This document shows positions 12,561 through 19,300 of a stretch of 64,000 bases of DNA, one piece after another (positions within the stretch are counted from its first letter, which is position 1; every line of letters begins with the position of its first letter). The notes beneath the pieces were generated by a model. It did not search any database and was not told the DNA's origin. It saw nothing but the letters and a program-made list of their open reading frames with translations. A program made the translations under genes and the position numbers. Source of the DNA: Alphaproteobacteria bacterium (lineage in GTDB: Bacteria > Pseudomonadota > Alphaproteobacteria > UBA828); contig CBDCRW010000005.1 of NCBI GenBank assembly GCA_965221125.1, positions 64,001 to 128,000 of the forward strand. The letters run 5' to 3'.

Positions 12561-12965
12561 GGGTTCGAGCCGGAACCGCCGTCGGGAACCACCCTTCCCC
12601 AACGGTCCGGAAGGCGCTGCGCCTCCACCGGGATACTACGTCAGGTGAGCGGCCAGTCCGTGGCCGGAAGCTTGCTTCAGGCCATGGCAGCACTTCGTCG
12701 TGTGGACGGTGGCGAGTCACCCGAAGGGCCGAAGCGAAGCGCAGGAGCGGCGCAGCCGCTTGACGCGCCGACGGCCGCGCGACACCTCGTCAGCTCTCCT
12801 CAAGCACCAGTCCAAACCTCAATCAGACAGCGACCCCGGACCGCCCGCAGAGACCATGAGCTCCTACGCTTCGATCCGGAAAAGACCGAGCAATCTGGGA
12901 AATCAGGGCAGCGATCACGTCAAATAATCTGGGAGATTCGGCGTCAAATAACGTGCGAAACAACA

Positions 12966-15900
12966 GCCGTCGATCTCGACGTTGAGCTTGATCCCTTCGT
13001 CGAGCAGCGCGAAGTCCAGTTCATAGCCGGCGACATTGAGTTTGGCGTAGGGCTTGAGGCCGGAGTCCCTCATGCCCTCGAAAACAAGTTTCTCTGCCCG
13101 ACTGTCCACCCGGAAGTTAGAGATGGCGGAAGGCGTTTGCTGCTTCGCCGCTACTTCGTTGCGCAGATAGGCTCGGAGCGAACCCAGCGTGGGTATGCCG
13201 AGCTGATCGATTTCCGGGTGTCCAATTACGATGAGGGATCGCCGGGCGCGGCTGACGGCTACATTGATTAGATTCTTCGTGTCCTCGATCCAGAGGCGGT
13301 TGCGATGGCTCATATCGGGGGAAACCACGCAGGATATGACGATGGCGTCCCGCTCGTTGCCTTGATAGCTGTGCGCGGTCGCGGAGAGGAAGCCAGCTTC
13401 GCACAAGGCGTCGCGTGAAATCCTTGCACGCGCCAAGCGCTTGATGCGGTCTGCTTGTCCGCGGAACGGAGTGACAACGCCAACGGTGAGATCGGATCGG
13501 ACGAGATGGGTGAGATGGCGGACGACTTCTTCCGCCTCAGCCGGGTTGCACCAGCTCTCGCCGTTGTCGCCTCGCTCGCACTCACCGGCTACGTCTTTCC
13601 AGAGAATTGAGTGATCCGCGTCTTCGACATCGGTCAGGACGGTCAATTCGTCGTTGTAGAAGGTGCGATTGAACCATCGGGCGATCTGCGGATGGCAGCG
13701 GTAATGCTCGTCCAGGAGAACTGGGGGATTGGAATCGCCGACGCAGTAAGCGAAGGCGAGATAGGCCGACCCATCCTTGTGGTGCAGGTTTCGGTCGCGC
13801 AAGCCGTCATTGTCGAATCCTGTCTCCTCAGCAATTTTCTTGAGCACGTTGTCCCCAACTCGCACGATCGGCTGCAGTTGAGAGGGGTCCCCGATCACCG
13901 CCAAGCGTTTGGCACGGTACGCCAGGGGAAGTACCGCGGCGAGCGTGCATTGACTCGCTTCGTCGAGGATCACGAGGTCGAAGAGGCCGCTTTCCCTCGG
14001 GAAATTCGACCCCGTGGAAAGCGCGGTACAGGCCCAGCCCTGTATGGTGCCGAGTGTGGAGGCGATCATCCCTCGCAGCGCTTTAGCGCTTGCCGCTGTG
14101 CGCGAAAAGCGCGCGAGCTCACTGGATTGGGAATCAAACTTCATTGCGACGTGCTGGCGAACGGCGTTGTAGCTGATCTCAGCCCACTTTTGGTTGAGCG
14201 CAGGCACCGCCGTTGTCACGTCACCAACGGAGTTCTCGATTCGAGCGCACGTCTGCTTGAGCTCTTCGATTTCCCGGGTGAGTGACGACCGCTCCTGTTC
14301 GAGCCGGGCCCAGGTATGGATAGCGCTGATGGGTGCTGAATGAAGGCAGCGGATATTCTTGCGAAGCCGGCGACTGCGGAACCGCCCTAGGAATCGTGCA
14401 TTAAGCAATCGATCGGCCCGATCCTCGATGCGTAGAGGATCGCGTCGCGCGACGGGAGGCGCCTCGAGGTGCCAGACTCGCCGTGCCACGTTGTTCAACT
14501 GGTCTTGGACGGTTTCGAGCTTGTGCGCGAGCGCCAAGAGCTCCCCTTCAGCGGCGTTCAGTCGCTCGAGGTCTGCAAACAACCCGGCCCGTTGGCCCGC
14601 GATTTTGCTCAAGGCGTCGGAGGAGCTGGGGGGCCTGGCCACGATGGGGGTTGCTGCGCAACGCGCGTCGCTGATGCGGCCAAGCACATCCTCCCGAGCT
14701 TTGCGATTTCCGGTTCGGATAAGGAGCCCGCTGAAAACGCGCTCGACCGCGCGGTCCACCGCGACATCGACGGCAGCGTTGTTGGTGGACGTGACGAGAA
14801 CCTTCTCCCCGTCGAGCCAAGCATTGCACACGGCGTTTACGACGAGCTCGGTCTTTCCCGTCCCAGGCGGCCCGGTAATGATCGTCAGAGGATGCGCGCG
14901 AATACGCTGGAGCGCATGTTCCTGGGATTGATTGCACAGAAGTGGGGCCGCGAGGGGTGTTGATGGCGAGGCAGCGCCGACAACCGCTTTCGGTGCGGCG
15001 CGGATCAGGTGAGCAGCCGCGCTCGACATCCAGTCATCGCAGTTTTTAATCTTTTCCAGCTCCTTGATGAGGCTGGTGTAGTAACTGGTCGCCGAAGCGT
15101 AAGCCGATATTGCCGCGTTATAGACGCCTTCATGGCTTTGGATGTGATCGCTGAGAGCCGCCGGCTCGAGCGGAGCGTGTATGGCGAGGCCGATCAGTTC
15201 CGCTACCTTGGTCGCGCAGTTCGCACAAGCGTCCTGGTCTCCGAAAGGCCAACCGGTGCCAAGAAGATCGCCGACCTGCTGAGTAATGGAGTCTTCGAAT
15301 GCGCCGCTCCCGACGATGGCCTGGTTGAATTCGGGCTCGGTGGCAGCTTGGAGCCGCCATTCTCCGTCGGCGTTCCGATCGGCTTCAATCTGTACATAGA
15401 AGAGTGGAGCCACGCGTAGACGCCTGTCGTCTTTGAATACCAGCGTGGGCCATCCGTACAGCAGCGACGCTTTCTGGGGCGATTCGGACGATGAGGCCAG
15501 ACTGGTGGCGAGCTGTGCGGGGGCGCGGACGGTATTGGTATGTCCGACTATCAGTTGTTCGGAACCGGTATGGCAGAACCAGGAGCGAGCCTTGGCTTCG
15601 AAGGTTACGAGCGACTGGGCGGCTTCCGCCTGTACGCATCTTCGAGCGTAGCTGCAGAGTCGGCGCCAATCGTCTTGCGGCGACTGGTCGACTCCGGTGG
15701 GCTCTGCAGAACTGTCATCTGTCTCAGTCGATTCCGGTTGGGCTAAACAGGGTCGGCGGGTTGAGTGGTCGACCGGGCTTTCCCGAGGGCGCGATTGGAC
15801 GGGTCCAGGGACGGACTCAGAAATTGATCGCCGTCGAGTCACCAATTTTCTTGTCAAGTGTATGACGATGGCAATGACCACAACAAAAATCAGGAATGGC

Positions 15901-16019
15901 AGGGGGTCGGCGAGCACGGCCAACGAGGCTCCCTGATCGAAGTCTGGCACGAGAGGGTCTCGCAATTCGGGAACGACGGGCTTCGGTTTTGGAAGCGGCA
16001 CTGTCGTGTCATCTGCCAT
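12966..16019 (-). pseudogene. SF1 (DNA2/NAM7/UPF1-like) helicase fused to DUF559-like nuclease, with N-terminal TM helix; interrupted by the transposon
   Basis: ITGPPGTGKT, STNNAAVD, ILDEASQ, IGDPSQLQP, EHYRCHP, TPFRGQ, AHSYQGNERD, NVAVSRAR, YELDFAL..LNVEIDG; hydrophobic LPFLIFVVVIAIVIHL. Reconstructed length 1075 aa from ATG 16019. Confidence 0.9.
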
Positions 16020-16175
16020 GCGAATCTTCTGTATATGGTGCTGATCCAGCTTCGCGATCTTGAACGGTGCAGGACCAAGTGAGCGGGGGCAAGACCTACC
16101 CAGCATCGCACCGAAGGGGGTGAGCCAAGACCGTGACGCAGCGGCGCGCGCCTGAGAGCGGCAGGGGAGAGAGGC

Positions 16176-16647
16176 ATGACATCGACGCCGCGTGGGTCGA
16201 GATCAAGTCGGTCTCGGGCGCCTTGGAGCCGAGGAGTTCATCGCGTCGGGTCGCATAGCGATGGATTCCGTCGTCGCCGTCACCGGCAAGACGGAAGGCA
16301 ACGGCGGGACCATCACTTCACCCGGATCCTGTCGCACAGCGCCTTCCGCGCCGCCCTCTTCGAGCACAGAACGCGCAGCAAAGCCGACGTCGCCTGGATC
16401 CTCATGGTCTGGACCGGGCGGCTGCGACGGCGTGCTCACTTCGCACGCAACCGTCTTCGCCAGCAACAACAGAGACCGGGCCGGCGGACGCAGTGCGTCT
16501 CGCCAAGGGACCGCGATGAGTTCACCCATCCTGCCCGAGACATCGGTCGGCCCGCGATGGTGGAGAACATCGCGGACGGCATCCGCGCGGCGATGGCCGA
16601 CGCGGGGACCGGCGATCCGGCGGACGTCCACTACGTCCAGACCAAGA
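16176..16647 (+). pseudogene. Barbiturase / cyanuric acid hydrolase family, 5' fragment with frameshifts
   Basis: VVAVTGKTEGNGG, FTRIL, MVWTG, GCDGVLTSHATVF, DIGRPAMVE..A.GIRAAM.DAG..DPADVHYVQTK are spread over two frames. Start approximate. Confidence 0.85.
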
Positions 16648-16795
16648 TGCCGTAATGGGGCTCGGCGCCAATCGGCACCATCGGAGCCTGTCCCGATGAC
16701 GACGAATCGGGTGTCGTTGCCCTTGCACGCTCAGCGTGCTCACGGGGTCTTGCCGGAAGGCGCGCCCCAATCCTTCGAGAGGAAAGGGCAACGAC

Positions 16796-17839
16796 ATGGC
16801 TGTCTATATCGGGCTGGATGTATCGCTGGCAAGCACGACAATCTGCGTGATCGGCGACAAGGGCAAGATCGTGACCGAGGCTCAGGTCGCCAGCACGCCT
16901 GACGCGTTGGTTGCGTTCATGGGCAAGCTGGAGCACGAGATCGCCGTGATCGGTCTTGAGGCCGGTCCCCTGTCCCACTGGTTGCACAAGGGGCTGACCG
17001 ACGCCGGCTTCGAGGCCGTCCTTATGGAGACCCGGCGGGTGAAGGCGGCGCTGAAGGCGATGCCGATCAAGACGGATCGCCGGGATGCCGAGGGCATCGC
17101 ACGGCTCTTGCAGATGGGCTGGTTCAGGCCGGTGCACTGCAAGTCGGTATCGTCGCAGGAGATGCGCGCACTGCTGACCTCGCGCAGGTCCGTGAAGGGC
17201 GCGCTCACCGATATGGAACTCTCGCTGCGCGGCGTGTTGCGCAACTTTGGCCTGAAGCTGGGCCAGGTCTCGAAGGGCCGCTGGGAGGCCCGCGTCCGGG
17301 AGTTGATCGCAGGCAACGCGATGCTGGAGGCCGCCGCCGAACCGATCCTGCGCGCGCGGGTGGCTCTGCGCCGCGAGCTGGCCGGCCTGGAGAAGCTGGT
17401 CCGCGATCTGGCCAGGGAGGATCCGGTATGCCGGCTGCTGATGACCATGCCCGGCGTAGGCGCGGTCGTGGCCCTGACCTTCAAATCGGCGATTGACGAT
17501 CCCGGGCGGTTCCGGAGATCGAAGGATGTCGGCCCCTGGGTGGGACTGACGCCGGGCCGGGACCAATCCGGCGAGCGAGATATTGTCGGCGGCATCACGA
17601 AGTGCGGCGACGCAGGTCTGCGTACCGCGCTCTATCAGGCCGCCACGGTGATGCTGAACGGCACCGCCGGGCCGAACTGGCTGAAGGCCTGGGCGCTTCG
17701 TCTGGCGAAGCTCCGTGGCAAGAAGCGTGCGACCGTCGCCCTGGCCCGGCGCATCGGCGTGGTACTTCACCGGATGTGGCGGGACGGCACCGAGTTCCGC
17801 TTCACGCGCGAGGAGGCGATGGCGCTCCAGACGGCATAG
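16796..17839 (+). CDS. IS110-family DEDD recombinase/transposase
   Basis: YIGLDVS, IGLEAG, KTDRRDA (RuvC DEDD); TMPGVG, GLTPGRDQSG, ITKCGD..LRTALY. Confidence 0.96.
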   Translation: MAVYIGLDVSLASTTICVIGDKGKIVTEAQVASTPDALVAFMGKLEHEIAVIGLEAGPLSHWLHKGLTDAGFEAVLMETRRVKAALKAMPIKTDRRDAEGIARLLQMGWFRPVHCKSVSSQEMRALLTSRRSVKGALTDMELSLRGVLRNFGLKLGQVSKGRWEARVRELIAGNAMLEAAAEPILRARVALRRELAGLEKLVRDLAREDPVCRLLMTMPGVGAVVALTFKSAIDDPGRFRRSKDVGPWVGLTPGRDQSGERDIVGGITKCGDAGLRTALYQAATVMLNGTAGPNWLKAWALRLAKLRGKKRATVALARRIGVVLHRMWRDGTEFRFTREEAMALQTA

Positions 17840-17910
17840 GCGCGGCTGCATCCCACCGGCAATCGGAAGCGAGAGGAGGAAAGAGCCGCGCCTGAAGGTG
17901 GCGATCCACC

Positions 17911-18090
17911 GGTGTCCCCTCGCCGGGACGCGGTTCCCGTTGATGCACGCGCTGCGTCTTGTCGGCCGAACCGTTTCATCGCGTTCGAGCACGCGACCAA
18001 GATCGGCACTCGGGAATCGTTTGGACCAGGCATGACGTTGGCAGCCGCTGCGCTGACCACGGACGGAAGCGAGAGCCTGGCGACGGACAC
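17911..18090 (+). ncRNA. Putative bridge RNA / seekRNA of the IS110 element
   Basis: Closing stems 17912-17927 with 18076-18090 and 17931-17939 with 18011-18019; target matches GCTGCGTCTTG (17951-17961) and GACCAAGA (17995-18002); donor matches GGCAT (18029-18033) and ACGGAAG (18063-18069). Boundaries approximate. Confidence 0.7.
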
Positions 18091-18278
18091 ATCCGGGAAT
18101 CCCGCTTCCTTCTTTGCCGCGCAGACGAGTCAGTTAGCCGCTCCCGCCATGGCAATCCGCTATGTTGACCGCGCCTGTGATTCGATTTGCAACAGGCTAC
18201 GGTGCTTCATGTGCGAGCCACCGTGCCAGGCCGGAAGATCGTGAAGATCGGTGTTTGACATCAACCGCCCCATTACGG

Positions 18279-18565
18279 AAGACGCCGCTGCTCACCATCG
18301 ACATGGTGCGGGACGCGCACGCGCGCTGAGACCTTGGCCGAGGTGGTCCGTGAATTGATGGGGGTTGGCGCACCAATGGCACCATCGGGCTCGGCATCGC
18401 GGTCGTGCTTGGCGAAGTCGCCATGCCCTGGGCCGACGAAATCTGCCACAGCGTCGACCTCTGCTCATCGATCGCCTCGTGCTCGTCGGGCGTGGAACTC
18501 GACCGCGGGAAGATCGCCCTCTTCGGCAATGCGCCGGGGGTCGGCGGGCGCTTCCGCATCGTCCC
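18279..18565 (+). pseudogene. Barbiturase family, downstream fragment (stops/frameshifts, truncated)
   Basis: KTPLLTIDMVRDAHAR...[18 protein letters not shown]...[13 protein letters not shown]...[12 protein letters not shown]. Confidence 0.85.
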
Positions 18566-18568
18566 AGA

Positions 18569-19210
18569 TCAAGGGCGGACGCAACATCCATCCAGTATGA
18601 CTCGGGTCATCGTCTCGGCTGCGGTGTCGAAGTCATTTCTCGTGAGCCGTCGCTGCCCGAGCACGTCGGCGGCCAACATCCCGAAGTCCGCATAGAACTG
18701 GGTCGCCGACCACAGCATGATGAAGAAGTGGCGCGGGTCCACCTTTGCCATCTGCCTGCGGCGGATCCACTCCTCCACAACGTGGGCGCGCTGGTCTGTG
18801 ACCTCGCGAATGTGCTGGCGCTGGCGCCGCTCCAGGAACTGTGCACCGCGCAGGATCTCGTTGGCGAAGAAGCGGGATTCCGTAGCATGGCGGCGGGAAT
18901 ACTCGAGCTTCGCGCGAATGTAGGCAGCGATGGCCTCGCGCGGTTCGCGCTCGGACACAATGTGCTCGAAGGCTCGGTCCCATTCCTCGATCAGGCGCTC
19001 GATAACCGCCGCGTAGATGCTCTCCTTGGTCGGAAAGTAGTAGTAGACGTTGGTCTTCGGCAGGCCGCTGACCCGGGCGATCTCCTTCATGTGCGTGCCG
19101 TGAAAGCTCTTGTCGGCAAAGAGGCCGACGGCGGCGCGCAGGATCCTTTCCTCGTTCCGGGCCCGGATACGCGGCGTCCCCCCCGCATCTGCTCGCTTCG
19201 TTTTCGTCAT
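18569..19210 (-). CDS. TetR-family regulator, RutR-like
   Basis: [16 protein letters not shown]....[18 protein letters not shown]; C-domain [10 protein letters not shown]...[12 protein letters not shown]...[19 protein letters not shown]. Confidence 0.9.
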
Positions 19211-19300
19211 GCCTGTGCCCCACCTCACACTGCAATTTGCCGCGCCGTCGCTGTCGGCCTCAGTCTAACCCCGCTCGGCTGTTGCCGGGCCAGAAATTAC

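What the first reader, a model, noticed from the sequence alone, without database searches (positions are those of the whole stretch)
16644..18284. IS110/IS1111 element with readable bridge-RNA guides for its own target and donor
Seen: removing the element restores the target ...CAGACC-AAGA-CGCCGCTG... (barbiturase QTKTPL). The predicted circle junction is ...ATTACGG-AAGA-TGCCGTAAT. The 3' non-coding end folds into about 180 nt. Loop 1 holds GCTGCGTCTTG (10/11 to the target bottom strand GCGGCGTCTTG) then GACCAAGA (8/8 to the top strand). Loop 2 holds GGCAT (donor bottom strand) then ACGGAAG (donor top strand), in the same order. Known: IS110/IS1111 recombinases are guided by bispecific bridge/seekRNAs, encoded downstream of the gene in IS1111-type elements. 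Inference: an intact programmable recombinase orthologue with a core within AAGA and a preferred target near GACCAAGACGCAGC. The 5-nt donor match is weak on its own.
Basis: partly seen in the sequence, partly recalled or inferred. Interest (0 to 1): 0.8.

Follow-up and report, generated by a model that had tools for sequence, protein, structure and literature searches.

The report
RNA-guided IS1111-type insertion sequence
This is an intact jumping gene of the known IS110/IS1111 kind whose own small RNA spells out both the DNA site it inserts into and its own ends; it is a well-supported new example rather than a new mechanism.

Summary
A 1635-bp IS (16647-18281 with one core copy) interrupts an AtzD/barbiturase-like pseudogene. 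Two same-genus genomes carry the same site empty, reading ...CAGACCAAG|ACGCCGCTG.... The ORF is an IS110-family DEDD transposase. The element has 12-bp subterminal inverted repeats and a long 3' non-coding end, so it is IS1111-type.

The genome holds six copies. All sit in (G/T)ACCA-AG-(A/G)(C/T)GC... sites, as the RNA segments at 17951-17961 and 17995-18002 predict.

I compared about 80 relatives (transposase 69-95% identical). The RNA scaffold is conserved, with 37 pairs, 97.9% paired and 14 compensatory pairs. The two target segments change together with each element's own flanks (0 of 20000 permutations). The short donor segments (18029-18033, 18063-18069) change together with changed IS ends in several lineages.

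Refinements:
- The core is AG, not all of AAGA.
- The code is 5 nt left + AG + 7 nt right.
- A conserved -35 (18255-18260) fits a circle-junction promoter.

RNA expression, protein binding and the circle were not shown. Verdict: a new member of a known kind, with moderate interest.

The parts
16640..16644 (+). Left target half (GACCA), read by the 3' target guide
   Evidence: Five of six genome copies have GACCA and one has TACCA. Positions -1 to -5 match the guide in 0.64-0.97 of 33 relatives, against 0.24-0.34 in the null.
16645..16646 (+). Core dinucleotide AG, left copy
   Evidence: Every left flank listed ends in AG (69 flanks; one has an N at the last base). The empty site has a single AG.
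16647..18279 (+). Body of the insertion sequence (1633 bp; 1635 bp with one core copy)
16650..16661 (+). Left subterminal inverted repeat CCGTAATGGGGC
   Evidence: The arms change in concert in relatives, for example L024 CCGTATTGGGGC/GCCCCAATACGG and L056 CCGTAATAGGGCGC/GCGCCCTATTACGG.
16796..17839 (+). Transposase/recombinase gene, 347 aa, DEDD RuvC-like domain plus Tnp domain with GLTPGRDQSG
   Evidence: Aligned to IS621 transposase 8wt6 (E 3.8e-13), with the Ser loop aligned to GLTPRRYESG.
17906..18086 (+). Modelled bridge/seekRNA scaffold. The conserved stretch is about 17880-18090.
   Evidence: Alignment A1, 37 pairs, 97.9% paired, 14 pairs with compensatory change. Conservation profile. 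Covariance model R1 finds all six copies at 161.8 bits.
17951..17961 (+). 5' target guide. GCUGCGU pairs with top-strand right target ACGCAGC, and CU (17958-17959) pairs with the core.
   Evidence: Right-target positions +1 to +7 match in 0.53-0.69 of relatives, against 0.24-0.31 in the null, and fall to background at +8.
17961..17994 (+). Variable hairpin (P4) that separates the two target guides
   Evidence: Six of its 9 pairs show changes on both sides, for example pair 65-92 AU:24 and GC:11.
17995..18003 (+). 3' target guide. GACCA is identical to the top-strand left target, followed by core AG (18000-18001) and a nearly invariant AU.
   Evidence: By eye on the A1 rows, AGAT is present in 38 of 40 (exceptions L028 and L056).
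18029..18033 (+). 5' donor guide GGCAU, complement of the left-end start ATGCC
   Evidence: Thirty of 37 rows with a known left end are all Watson-Crick. ATACC ends go with GGTAT (L030, L034) or AGTAT (L052).
18037..18060 (+). Hairpin (P5) between the two donor guides
   Evidence: Pair 156-179 reads AU:21, GC:17, GU:2.
18063..18069 (+). 3' donor guide ACGGA+AG, identical to the right-end terminus plus core
   Evidence: Of 11 relatives with a changed right end, 7 carry the matching RNA change, 3 a G:T wobble and 1 a mismatch.
18255..18260 (+). -35 hexamer TTGACA of the inferred circle-junction promoter (TTGACA-17 nt-GAAGAT across the joined ends)
   Evidence: TTGAC sits exactly 27 nt from the end in 43 of 44 distinct 3' ends. 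That a promoter forms at the junction is inferred. The simple promoter scan of the linear sequence found none.
18267..18278 (+). Right subterminal inverted repeat GCCCCATTACGG
18280..18281 (+). Core dinucleotide AG, right copy
18282..18288 (+). Right target half ACGCCGC (6 of 7 to the guide-predicted ACGCAGC)

Best explanation
The element is an intact, recently active insertion sequence of the IS1111 group of the IS110 family. Its DEDD/serine recombinase is guided by a roughly 180-200-nt RNA encoded in the long 3' non-coding end.

Target arm. An internal loop sits between a conserved outer stem and a variable hairpin, and it carries two guides. The 5' guide (GCUGCGU-CU) pairs with the top strand of core plus right target. 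The 3' guide (GACCA-AG) pairs with the bottom strand of left target plus core. The site read is 5 + 2 + 7 = 14 bp: GACCA-AG-ACGCAGC.

Donor arm. Single strands flank a second conserved hairpin, in a multi-loop-like layout. GGCAU pairs with the start of the left end (ATGCC), and ACGGA-AG matches the right-end terminus plus core. Together they read the joined ends of the excised circle.

Exchange happens at the AG core. This is inferred from the single AG in the empty site and the AG at both junctions.

Inferred by analogy, not shown here:
- Excision gives a circle whose junction builds a promoter (TTGACA-17-GAAGAT) that drives the recombinase gene and the RNA.
- The nearly invariant AU after the core in the 3' target guide acts like the IS621 handshake guide, pairing with the first two left-end bases after strand exchange.
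- Read on the other strand, the geometry equals IS621 (core CT; the left guide lies 5' and pairs with the bottom strand).
For: Family and layout
- IS110-family transposase. The catalytic motifs align with IS621 (YIGLD, GLEAG, KTDRRDA, GLTPGRDQSG).
- 12-bp subterminal inverted repeats. The 3' non-coding end is 442 nt and the 5' end 149 nt.

Insertion sites
- six copies. They differ at 3 single bases plus one patch in L006, and not at all in 17840-18281. Their six different sites all fit the guides, and L006 fits 14/14.
- the same locus is empty in two same-genus genomes, with one AG.

Target guides across relatives
- 80 related loci were fetched and 44 distinct 3' ends aligned. The scaffold is conserved and the sequence is variable exactly at the two target guides.
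- over 33 distinct guide pairs, the 5' guide scores 228.9 on its own targets against 126.7 (sd 6.8) on permuted targets. The 3' guide scores 150.6 against 88.1 (sd 5.0). Both give 0 of 20000 permutations.
- after skipping partial copies, the 5' guide scores 245.2 against 124.0 (sd 7.1). An element's own target is best or tied in 24 of 32.
- the signal covers right-target positions +1 to +7 and left-target positions -1 to -5, then drops to background.

Structure
- 37 pairs, 97.9% of cells paired against 27-44% in slid controls. Fourteen pairs show compensatory change. 0 of 500 shuffles reach the observed values.

Donor guides and junction promoter
- the donor guides follow changed ends in L021, L025, L059/L067/L083, L069/L074 and L030/L034/L052.
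- TTGAC lies at a fixed 27 nt from the end in 43 of 44.

Literature
- IS1111 seekRNAs lie 3' of the transposase gene, with the top-strand match 5' of the bottom-strand match (PMC11187229, sections read).
- Bridge RNAs are predicted in 93% of IS1111 elements, often with donor nucleotides in a multi-loop (PMC11208160, passages).
- IS621 strand assignments and handshake guides come from PMC11208158 (passages).
Against: - There is no direct evidence of the RNA. All runs were contigs. Contigs from RNA libraries X15 and X17 cover the element, including 17890-18270, but the tool states this does not show transcription.
- No contig shows a circle junction; one search listed no joints.
- No Rfam family matches (best E 0.68, a chance-level hit).
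- Single-sequence folding is no better than shuffles.
- The simple promoter scan of the linear sequence found nothing. The inferred -10, GAAGAT, has only 3 of 6 consensus bases.
- Many stems never vary: 14 of 37 pairs. The RNAalifold covariation term is small (-2.42).
- Donor covariation rests on a few lineages and was not corrected for shared descent. There are exceptions: L014 (C:A mismatch), L076 and L052 (one mismatch each), and L008 carries an RNA change without a change in its end (wobble).
- The donor guides cover only about 5 nt per side. The 12-bp inverted repeats are largely unread by the RNA, so protein recognition of the ends is likely to contribute.
- Some relatives still match their flanks poorly after correction (L013 and L067 score 3; L011 and L064 score 4).
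- Relatives are kin, so the permutation counts overstate independence.
- The window's own site has one C:U mismatch (ACGCCGC against ACGCAGC).
Confidence: 0.82

Rival explanations
1. The RNA guides only target choice, as a seekRNA in the narrow sense. The element's ends are recognised by the protein through the subterminal inverted repeats. The short 'donor guides' are scaffold sequence that resembles the ends by descent or by chance.
For: - The donor matches are only 5 and 7 nt.
- The 12-bp inverted-repeat arms covary with each other, as expected for symmetric protein or structure recognition.
- In PMC11187229 (discussion read) the short 82-nt seekRNA sufficed for ISEc11, and end recognition was left open.
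- There are exceptions to donor pairing in L014, L076 and L052.
Against: - Seven of 11 relatives with a changed right end carry the matching RNA change and 3 more a G:T wobble.
- All three ATACC left ends carry the matching U.
- No RNA change in the 3' donor guide occurs without the change in the end.
- The layout mirrors the IS621 donor loop.
- PMC11208160 reports donor complementarity in IS1111 RNAs.
Confidence: 0.12
2. The element is a fossil. The copies spread in the past, and the RNA or the recombinase no longer works in this genome.
For: - Copy L006 has a rearranged patch at 16915-16952 with an in-frame TGA.
- A 258-bp left-end fragment exists (L007).
- No circle junction and no joint appeared in the contigs.
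- Unoccupied one-mismatch sites remain in the genome.
Against: - Five copies differ by at most 2 bases and have open 347-aa frames.
- The RNA region is identical in all six.
- The window's site is empty in two same-genus genomes with 100% identical flanking protein sequence, so the insertion is recent.
Confidence: 0.05
3. The RNA-like matches are coincidence, and target choice is encoded in the protein.
For: In shuffles of the 3' end each single match arises at about 0.6-0.9%. The window alone is not overwhelming.
Against: Guide columns change with each relative's own flanks. 0 of 20000 permutations reach the observed score for either guide. The transposases stay 69-95% identical while the targets differ completely.
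Confidence: 0.01

Closest known systems
IS1111-group elements with seekRNA (ISEc11, ISPa11, ISKpn4, ISPst6; Siddiquee et al. 2024, PMC11187229)
   Same: - DEDD transposase of about 340 aa with the GL-P----SG motif.
- Subterminal inverted repeats and a long non-coding region downstream of the gene.
- An RNA with a top-strand match 5' of a bottom-strand match, the two overlapping at the insertion point.
- Natural re-direction among relatives by guide replacement.
- A promoter formed at the circle junction.
   Different: - The target (GACCA-AG-ACGCAGC) and the host lineage are different.
- Here the donor-end matches are also supported by covariation, a point that paper left open.
- Nothing here is experimental.
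IS621 bridge RNA and recombinase (Durrant et al. 2024, PMC11208160; Hiraizumi et al. 2024, PMC11208158; PDB 8wt6)
   Same: - A bispecific RNA with a target arm and a donor arm. Each arm has two guides that read opposite strands on either side of a 2-nt core.
- The recombinase is homologous (E 3.8e-13).
- The core AG is CT on the other strand, as in IS621.
- Two nearly invariant bases after the core in one target guide sit where the IS621 handshake guide sits.
   Different: - The RNA lies at the 3' end, not the 5' end.
- The guide order is reversed relative to the element's orientation.
- The inverted repeats are long (12 bp).
- The donor guides lie beside a hairpin in a multi-loop-like junction, not in a simple internal loop.
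- I saw no covariation for a donor-arm handshake base: the C after AAG is constant in 37 of 40 rows (by eye on the A1 rows) while the first right-target base varies.
ISPpu9 of Pseudomonas putida (PMC12288879, abstract read)
   Same: An IS110-family element with a small-RNA gene downstream of the transposase gene. It has modular sub-element products: circles that hold only part of the element.
   Different: In ISPpu9 the small RNA was not required for transposition and no hybrid junction promoter formed. In the present family the RNA carries covarying guides and a conserved -35 at the end. The partial-copy arrays seen in relatives here start at arbitrary internal AG sites, not at module borders.

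Membership tests
IS110 family (DEDD transposases) | N-terminal RuvC-like DEDD domain (PF01548) and C-terminal Tnp domain (PF02371) | tested here: met
   PF01548 at 2.6e-16 and PF02371 at 6.7e-22. NF033542 equivalog, 251.1 bits against a cut-off of 140.
IS110 family (DEDD transposases) | Catalytic D-E-D-D residues and the Ser of the G--P----SG loop | tested here: met
   alignment to IS621: YIGLD/YIGID, GLEAG/CIEATG, KTDRRDA/KTDTVDA and GLTPGRDQSG/GLTPRRYESG. The N-terminal part of that alignment scores weakly (3.8 bits), so those equivalences rest on motif position.
IS1111 group | Subterminal inverted repeats of 7-17 bp | tested here: met
   12 bp, CCGTAATGGGGC/GCCCCATTACGG, set 3 nt in from the left end and 1 nt in from the right end.
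IS1111 group | The longer non-coding region lies downstream of the transposase gene | tested here: met
   442 nt downstream (including the core) against 149 nt upstream.
IS1111 group | Transposase of 330-350 aa with GL-P----S(T)G | tested here: met
   347 aa, with GLTPGRDQSG in the sequence. The criterion comes from PMC11187229, section read.
IS1111 group | Site-specific, orientation-specific insertion with an identifiable uninterrupted target | tested here: met
   Six sites share (G/T)ACCA-AG-(A/G)(C/T)GC in one orientation. The empty site is seen in G015 and G018.
IS1111 group | A circular intermediate with a junction promoter | tested here: inconclusive
   The -35 TTGAC lies at a fixed distance in 43 of 44 ends. 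No junction-spanning contig was found, and raw reads were not available.
Bridge RNA / seekRNA | A conserved RNA secondary structure in the non-coding end | tested here: met
   37 pairs, 97.9% paired, 14 with compensatory change, 0 of 500 shuffles, slid controls 27-44%.
Bridge RNA / seekRNA | Two segments that match opposite strands of the target, overlap at the core, and covary with the target | tested here: met
Bridge RNA / seekRNA | IS1111-type order: the segment that pairs with the top strand lies 5' of the one that pairs with the bottom strand | tested here: met
   coordinates (17951-17961, then 17995-18002) against the criterion.
Bridge RNA / seekRNA | A second pair of segments that match the joined element ends (bispecificity) | tested here: met
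   The matches are short (5 and 7 nt) and covary in several lineages, with a few exceptions, and were not corrected for phylogeny.
Bridge RNA / seekRNA | The RNA is transcribed, processed and bound by the recombinase, and is needed for transposition | not testable with these tools
   Only contigs of RNA libraries were available. They cover the region but do not show transcription.
Rfam-curated RNA family | A match to a curated covariance model | tested here: not met
   nothing near a gathering score in 16400-18600.

The most novel reading that the evidence does not exclude
This IS1111-type RNA is fully bispecific and works as a mirror image of IS621: core AG = CT, a 5+2+7 target code, 5-nt donor half-sites, and a nearly invariant AU 'handshake' for the left end.

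The same recombinase also exchanges its right end with arbitrary internal AG sites. In nature this leaves tandem arrays of right-end partial copies in 7 of the related elements. That would be a visible record of core-only off-target recombination by a bridge recombinase.
Probability: 0.35. Interest if true: 0.5.

Novelty: new member of a known kind. Interest (0 to 1): 0.35.

Why it matters
RNA-guided IS110/IS1111 recombinases are being developed as genome-insertion tools. Only a handful of IS1111-type RNAs have been dissected, and how they read the donor ends is still open.

This family offers one scaffold with about 32 naturally reprogrammed guide pairs, a defined 14-bp code, an observed empty site, and natural covariation at the donor half-sites. 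That makes it a convenient system for testing donor recognition and handshake pairing in the IS1111 group.

For the biology of the host genome it is ordinary. It is a multi-copy IS whose best-matching site is the start of an HU-family gene.

Tried and rejected
- Rfam scan of 16400-18600 at E up to 10: only chance-level hits.
- Single-sequence folding of 17900-18100 and 17840-18284: energies no better than shuffles, so not informative for this G+C-rich RNA.
- Promoter and terminator scan of 16500-18400: none found. The junction promoter can only exist in the circle.
- Exact empty copies of GACCAAGACGCAG in the genome: none. There were 12 one-mismatch sites against 19 for the reversed control, so no enrichment.
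- Sequencing runs: four runs were laid, all as contigs.
  - No joints appeared, so there is no evidence for a circle junction or for excision.
  - Contigs from RNA libraries X15 and X17 cover only the element and not its flanks. The tool does not accept absence of cover as evidence, and a multi-copy element is favoured anyway, so I draw nothing from it.
  - Loose ends at 16640 and at 18285-18292 fit other insertion sites of the same element, with the L002/L006-like and L005-like flanks among them.
- RNAalifold on the 5' part, 17873-17931: it predicted only the GUCCC/GGGAC hairpin. A further hairpin that I saw by eye around 17886-17905 is not established, because the alignment is out of register there.
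- My first register-anchored guide scores undercounted matches, because some relatives carry an imperfect core complement. I replaced them with ungapped local scores.
- Poor guide matches of L016, L024, L054, L058 and much of the L034 group came from partial copies lying between the element and its true right flank. They are not evidence against guidance.
- Paper search for IS1111 + tandem + 'partial copies': 0 papers. This one search does not show that the arrays are undescribed.
- Supplementary files of the papers were not opened. The ISfinder-wide tables and RNA structures of Durrant et al. and Siddiquee et al. may already list this element or close relatives.
Full report
**What is there**

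The stretch 16644-18284 holds one ORF, 16796-17839 on the + strand, 347 aa.
- It carries the two Pfam domains of IS110-family transposases: PF01548 at 2.6e-16 and PF02371 at 6.7e-22.
- It passes NCBI's equivalog model NF033542, 'IS110 family RNA-guided transposase', at 251 bits against a cut-off of 140.
- Against solved structures it aligns with the IS621 and ISCro4 transposases (E 3.8e-13 and 6.4e-13).
- The motifs YIGLD, GLEAG, KTDRRDA and GLTPGRDQSG lie opposite the IS621 catalytic D, E, D..D and Ser loop. The N-terminal part of that alignment is weak.
- The gene is flanked by 149 nt on the left and 442 nt on the right.
- A 12-bp inverted repeat sits just inside the ends: CCGTAATGGGGC at 16650-16661 and GCCCCATTACGG at 18267-18278.

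These are the published hallmarks of the IS1111 group (PMC11187229, section read; PMC11208160, passages).

**Boundaries and core**

I fetched 80 related loci from public genomes, with transposases 69-95% identical. Wherever a left end could be found, the junctions read ...AG|AT(G/A)CC...ACGGA|AG.... All 69 left flanks end in AG, although one has an N at its last base. The base before the AG varies.

The core is therefore the dinucleotide AG. The extra A on each side in this window is a coincidence between the target (GACCA-AG-ACGC...) and the element's termini (A...A).

The element is 16647-18279 plus one core copy, 1635 bp in all.

The same locus is uninterrupted in two same-genus genomes. 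G015 and G018 carry ...TACGTCCAGACCAAG|ACGCCGCTGCTC... (HYVQTK|TPLLT), with flanking protein sequence 100% identical to the window. Intact homologues read the same across the point. This confirms the restored target and shows that the insertion is recent.

**Copies and their sites**

The genome has 7 contigs and 4.58 Mb. It holds six full copies and one 258-bp left-end fragment.
- Five copies differ at no more than two of three single-base positions.
- The sixth, L006, has a rearranged patch at 16915-16952 with 21 extra bases and an in-frame TGA.
- None differs anywhere in 17840-18281. A covariance model of the RNA scores all six at 161.8 bits and finds nothing else in the genome.

The six sites, read in the element's orientation, are:

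| Site (left half - core - right half) |
|---|
| GACCA-AG-ACGCCGC |
| GACCA-AG-ACGCAGT |
| GACCA-AG-ACGCGCT |
| TACCA-AG-ATGCGGC |
| GACCA-AG-GCGCAGC |
| GACCA-AG-ACGCAGC |

Several departures from the optimum would be G:U or G:T wobbles against the RNA; this is read from the sequences.

The two best sites are codons 2-6 (M-TKTQ-L) of an HU-family gene and of a truncated paralogue.

**The RNA: target guides**

I aligned 44 distinct 3' ends. A scaffold from about 17880 to 18090 is conserved, and the alignment is variable at two short blocks and at the hairpin between them.
- Block 1, in the window GCUGCGU + CU at 17951-17959, is the complement of core plus right flank.
- Block 2, GACCA + AG at 17995-18001, equals left flank plus core.

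In relative after relative both blocks differ and match that element's own flanks. For example, L008 has ...GAGCGG-CU and UACC-AG for the site GTACC-AG-CCGCTCGC.

Scores over 33 distinct guide pairs, own targets against permuted targets:

| Guide | Own targets | Permuted mean (sd) | Permutations reaching own |
|---|---|---|---|
| 5' guide | 228.9 | 126.7 (6.8) | 0 of 20000 |
| 3' guide | 150.6 | 88.1 (5.0) | 0 of 20000 |

Position by position, the signal covers right-flank bases +1 to +7 (0.53-0.69 matched against 0.24-0.31 in the null) and left-flank bases -1 to -5 (0.64-0.97 against 0.24-0.34). It falls to background beyond those positions. The code is therefore 5 + 2 + 7 bases.

The order, with the top-strand-pairing guide first, is the one reported for IS1111 seekRNAs and is the reverse of IS110-type RNAs. 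In IS621 the left guide pairs with the bottom strand. Read on the opposite strand, the present site has core CT and the IS621 arrangement. This last point is my inference.

**The RNA: structure**

RNAalifold was run on 40 distinct sequences covering 17906-18086. It gives:
- a three-pair closing helix;
- an invariant hairpin, GUCCC/GGGAC;
- a long arm whose internal loop holds the two target guides and is capped by a variable hairpin;
- a second hairpin flanked by the two donor segments.

Of 1467 cells, 97.9% are paired, against 27-44% when partners are slid by 1-3 columns. Fourteen of 37 pairs show changes on both sides. No shuffle out of 500 reaches any observed measure. The strongest support is in the variable hairpin (6 of 9 pairs) and in one pair of the donor hairpin (AU 21, GC 17).

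Fourteen pairs never vary, and single-sequence energies are unremarkable. Placing the donor nucleotides beside a hairpin in a junction, rather than in a simple internal loop, agrees with what Durrant et al. note for many IS1111 RNAs.

**The RNA: donor guides**

GGCAU (18029-18033) is complementary to the first five bases of the left end. ACGGA-AG (18063-18069) equals the last five bases of the right end plus the core.

Because the ends are conserved, most relatives cannot test this. Those with changed ends can:

| End change | Relatives with the matching RNA change | Others |
|---|---|---|
| Right end ACAGA | L021, L059, L067, L083 (ACAGAAG) | L052, L068, L084 keep G (G:T wobble) |
| Right end ACGAA | L025 (ACGAAAG) | - |
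| Right end ATGGA | L069, L074 (AUGGAAG) | L014 mismatched |
| Left end ATACC | L030, L034 (GGUAU), L052 (AGUAU) | - |

No change in the 3' donor guide occurs without the change in the end.

Three caveats apply. The lineages are few, I did not correct for shared descent, and the 12-bp inverted repeats are mostly outside the RNA matches. The two repeat arms covary with each other. Recognition of the ends is therefore probably shared between the RNA and the protein.

**Expression signals**

The hexamer TTGACA at 18255-18260 is conserved as TTGAC exactly 27 nt from the end in 43 of 44 distinct ends. Joining the ends would give TTGACA-17 nt-GAAGAT.

A junction promoter is known for the IS1111 family: it is discussed in PMC11187229, and Prosseda et al. 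2006 is seen only as a reference. Here it is inferred.

Contigs from two RNA libraries cover the element, including the RNA region. By the tool's own rules that does not show transcription, and no circle junction or excision joint was seen.

**Mechanism**

- Shown: the family, layout, boundaries and empty site; six guide-compatible sites; a conserved structured RNA region; covariation of target guides with targets; partial covariation of donor guides with ends.
- Inferred from the published systems: the element excises as a circle; the junction promoter drives the recombinase and the RNA; recombinase dimers bound to the two arms of the RNA pair the circle junction with a GACCA-AG-ACGCAGC-like site and exchange strands at AG; the nearly invariant AU after the core in the 3' target guide pairs with the first two left-end bases after the first strand exchange, like the IS621 handshake guide.

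**Comparison and novelty**

This is a member of the IS1111 group with a bridge/seekRNA of the known kind. Bridge RNAs were predicted in 93% of catalogued IS1111 elements. NCBI's family name already says 'RNA-guided'.

What is new is the particular element, its target and its family of naturally retargeted relatives. The comparative support for RNA reading of the donor half-sites in an IS1111-type element is also new here. I could not check ISfinder or the papers' supplementary tables, which may already list close relatives.

**A side observation in relatives, not in this genome**

In 18 of 61 loci with both flanks, from 7 distinct elements, the full element is followed directly by one to four 3' partial copies of itself. 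This includes 13 of the 17 copies in one genome.
- Each partial copy begins right after an internal AG.
- Nearly all of them run at about 100% identity to the right end.
- Where the locus reached past the last partial copy (13 of the 17 loci listed), a flank follows. It fits the 5' guide in most cases; L039 and L067 fit poorly.

Skipping the partial copies raises the guide statistics to 245.2 against 124.0 (sd 7.1). An element's own target is then best or tied in 24 of 32.

The pattern looks like exchange between the right end and arbitrary internal AG sites. I could not exclude assembly artefacts, and I have no tested mechanism.

Noticed in passing
Loci L016, L024, L034-L051, L054, L058, L067 (relatives): A full element is followed directly by one to four 3' partial copies of itself. 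Each partial copy starts right after an internal AG, and nearly all run at about 100% identity to the right end. Where the locus reaches past the array, the flank behind it mostly fits the 5' guide. This occurs in 18 of 61 loci and 7 distinct elements. It does not occur in the window's own six copies.
   Followed up: partly
window 16176-16646 and 18282-18692: The interrupted gene is an AtzD/TrzD/barbiturase-family (PF09663) pseudogene. Its pieces lie in three reading frames, at profile positions 17-122, 46-157 and 200-254 of 358. A stop falls 15 codons after the insertion point, and the same stop is present in the empty alleles of G015 and G018.
   Followed up: partly
L006:3160-3444 and L002:3139-3438 (own genome): The two sites that fit the guides best are codons 2-6 (TKTQL) of an HU/IHF-family gene (PF00216, 3.3e-12) and of a truncated paralogue. 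A third genome's contig, L029, shows the same kind of flank.
   Followed up: partly
L006 (own genome C5:718283-719944), window-equivalent 16915-16952: This copy sits in the perfect target. It carries a rearranged patch with 21 extra bases and a TGA inside the transposase domain match, so it is probably the oldest copy and is broken.
   Followed up: partly
L007 (own genome C6:220871-221126): A solo left-end fragment of about 258 bp. By it matches the element almost exactly for about 120 bases, then falls out of register. It is flanked on the left by ...TATATTC-AG, which is a core but no GACCA.
   Followed up: partly
window 17873-17905: A purine-rich AGGAGG-like block and a possible short hairpin (GCGCC..GGYGC) are conserved upstream of the modelled RNA in most relatives. 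RNAalifold did not call the hairpin. The block could be a 5' stem-loop of the long RNA form.
   Followed up: partly
Loci L011, L018, L024/L026, L029 (record titles): Near-identical transposases (84-100% aa) sit in metagenome-assembled genomes labelled as different phyla: Binatia, Chloroflexota, Thermodesulfobacteriota and Gemmatimonadetes. This points either to horizontal spread or to mis-binned short contigs. I did not resolve which.
   Followed up: no
own genome C3:392712-393131, C4:166510-166929, C2:60021-60245, C7:303676-303918: Further IS110-family transposase matches that do not belong to this element: two full-length copies of another element and two fragments.
   Followed up: no
window 18569-19228 (-) and 12915-16106 (-): A TetR-family regulator (PF00440 + PF08362) overlaps the tail of the pseudogene. 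A 1063-aa ORF upstream, with helicase-like motifs by eye, was not examined.
   Followed up: no
plasmid records H1-H5: DNA similarity of about 70% to roseobacter and rhizobial plasmid copies runs from the left end through the transposase gene. It stops at query positions 1426-1447, about window 18070-18091, which is the 3' edge of the conserved RNA.
   Followed up: no
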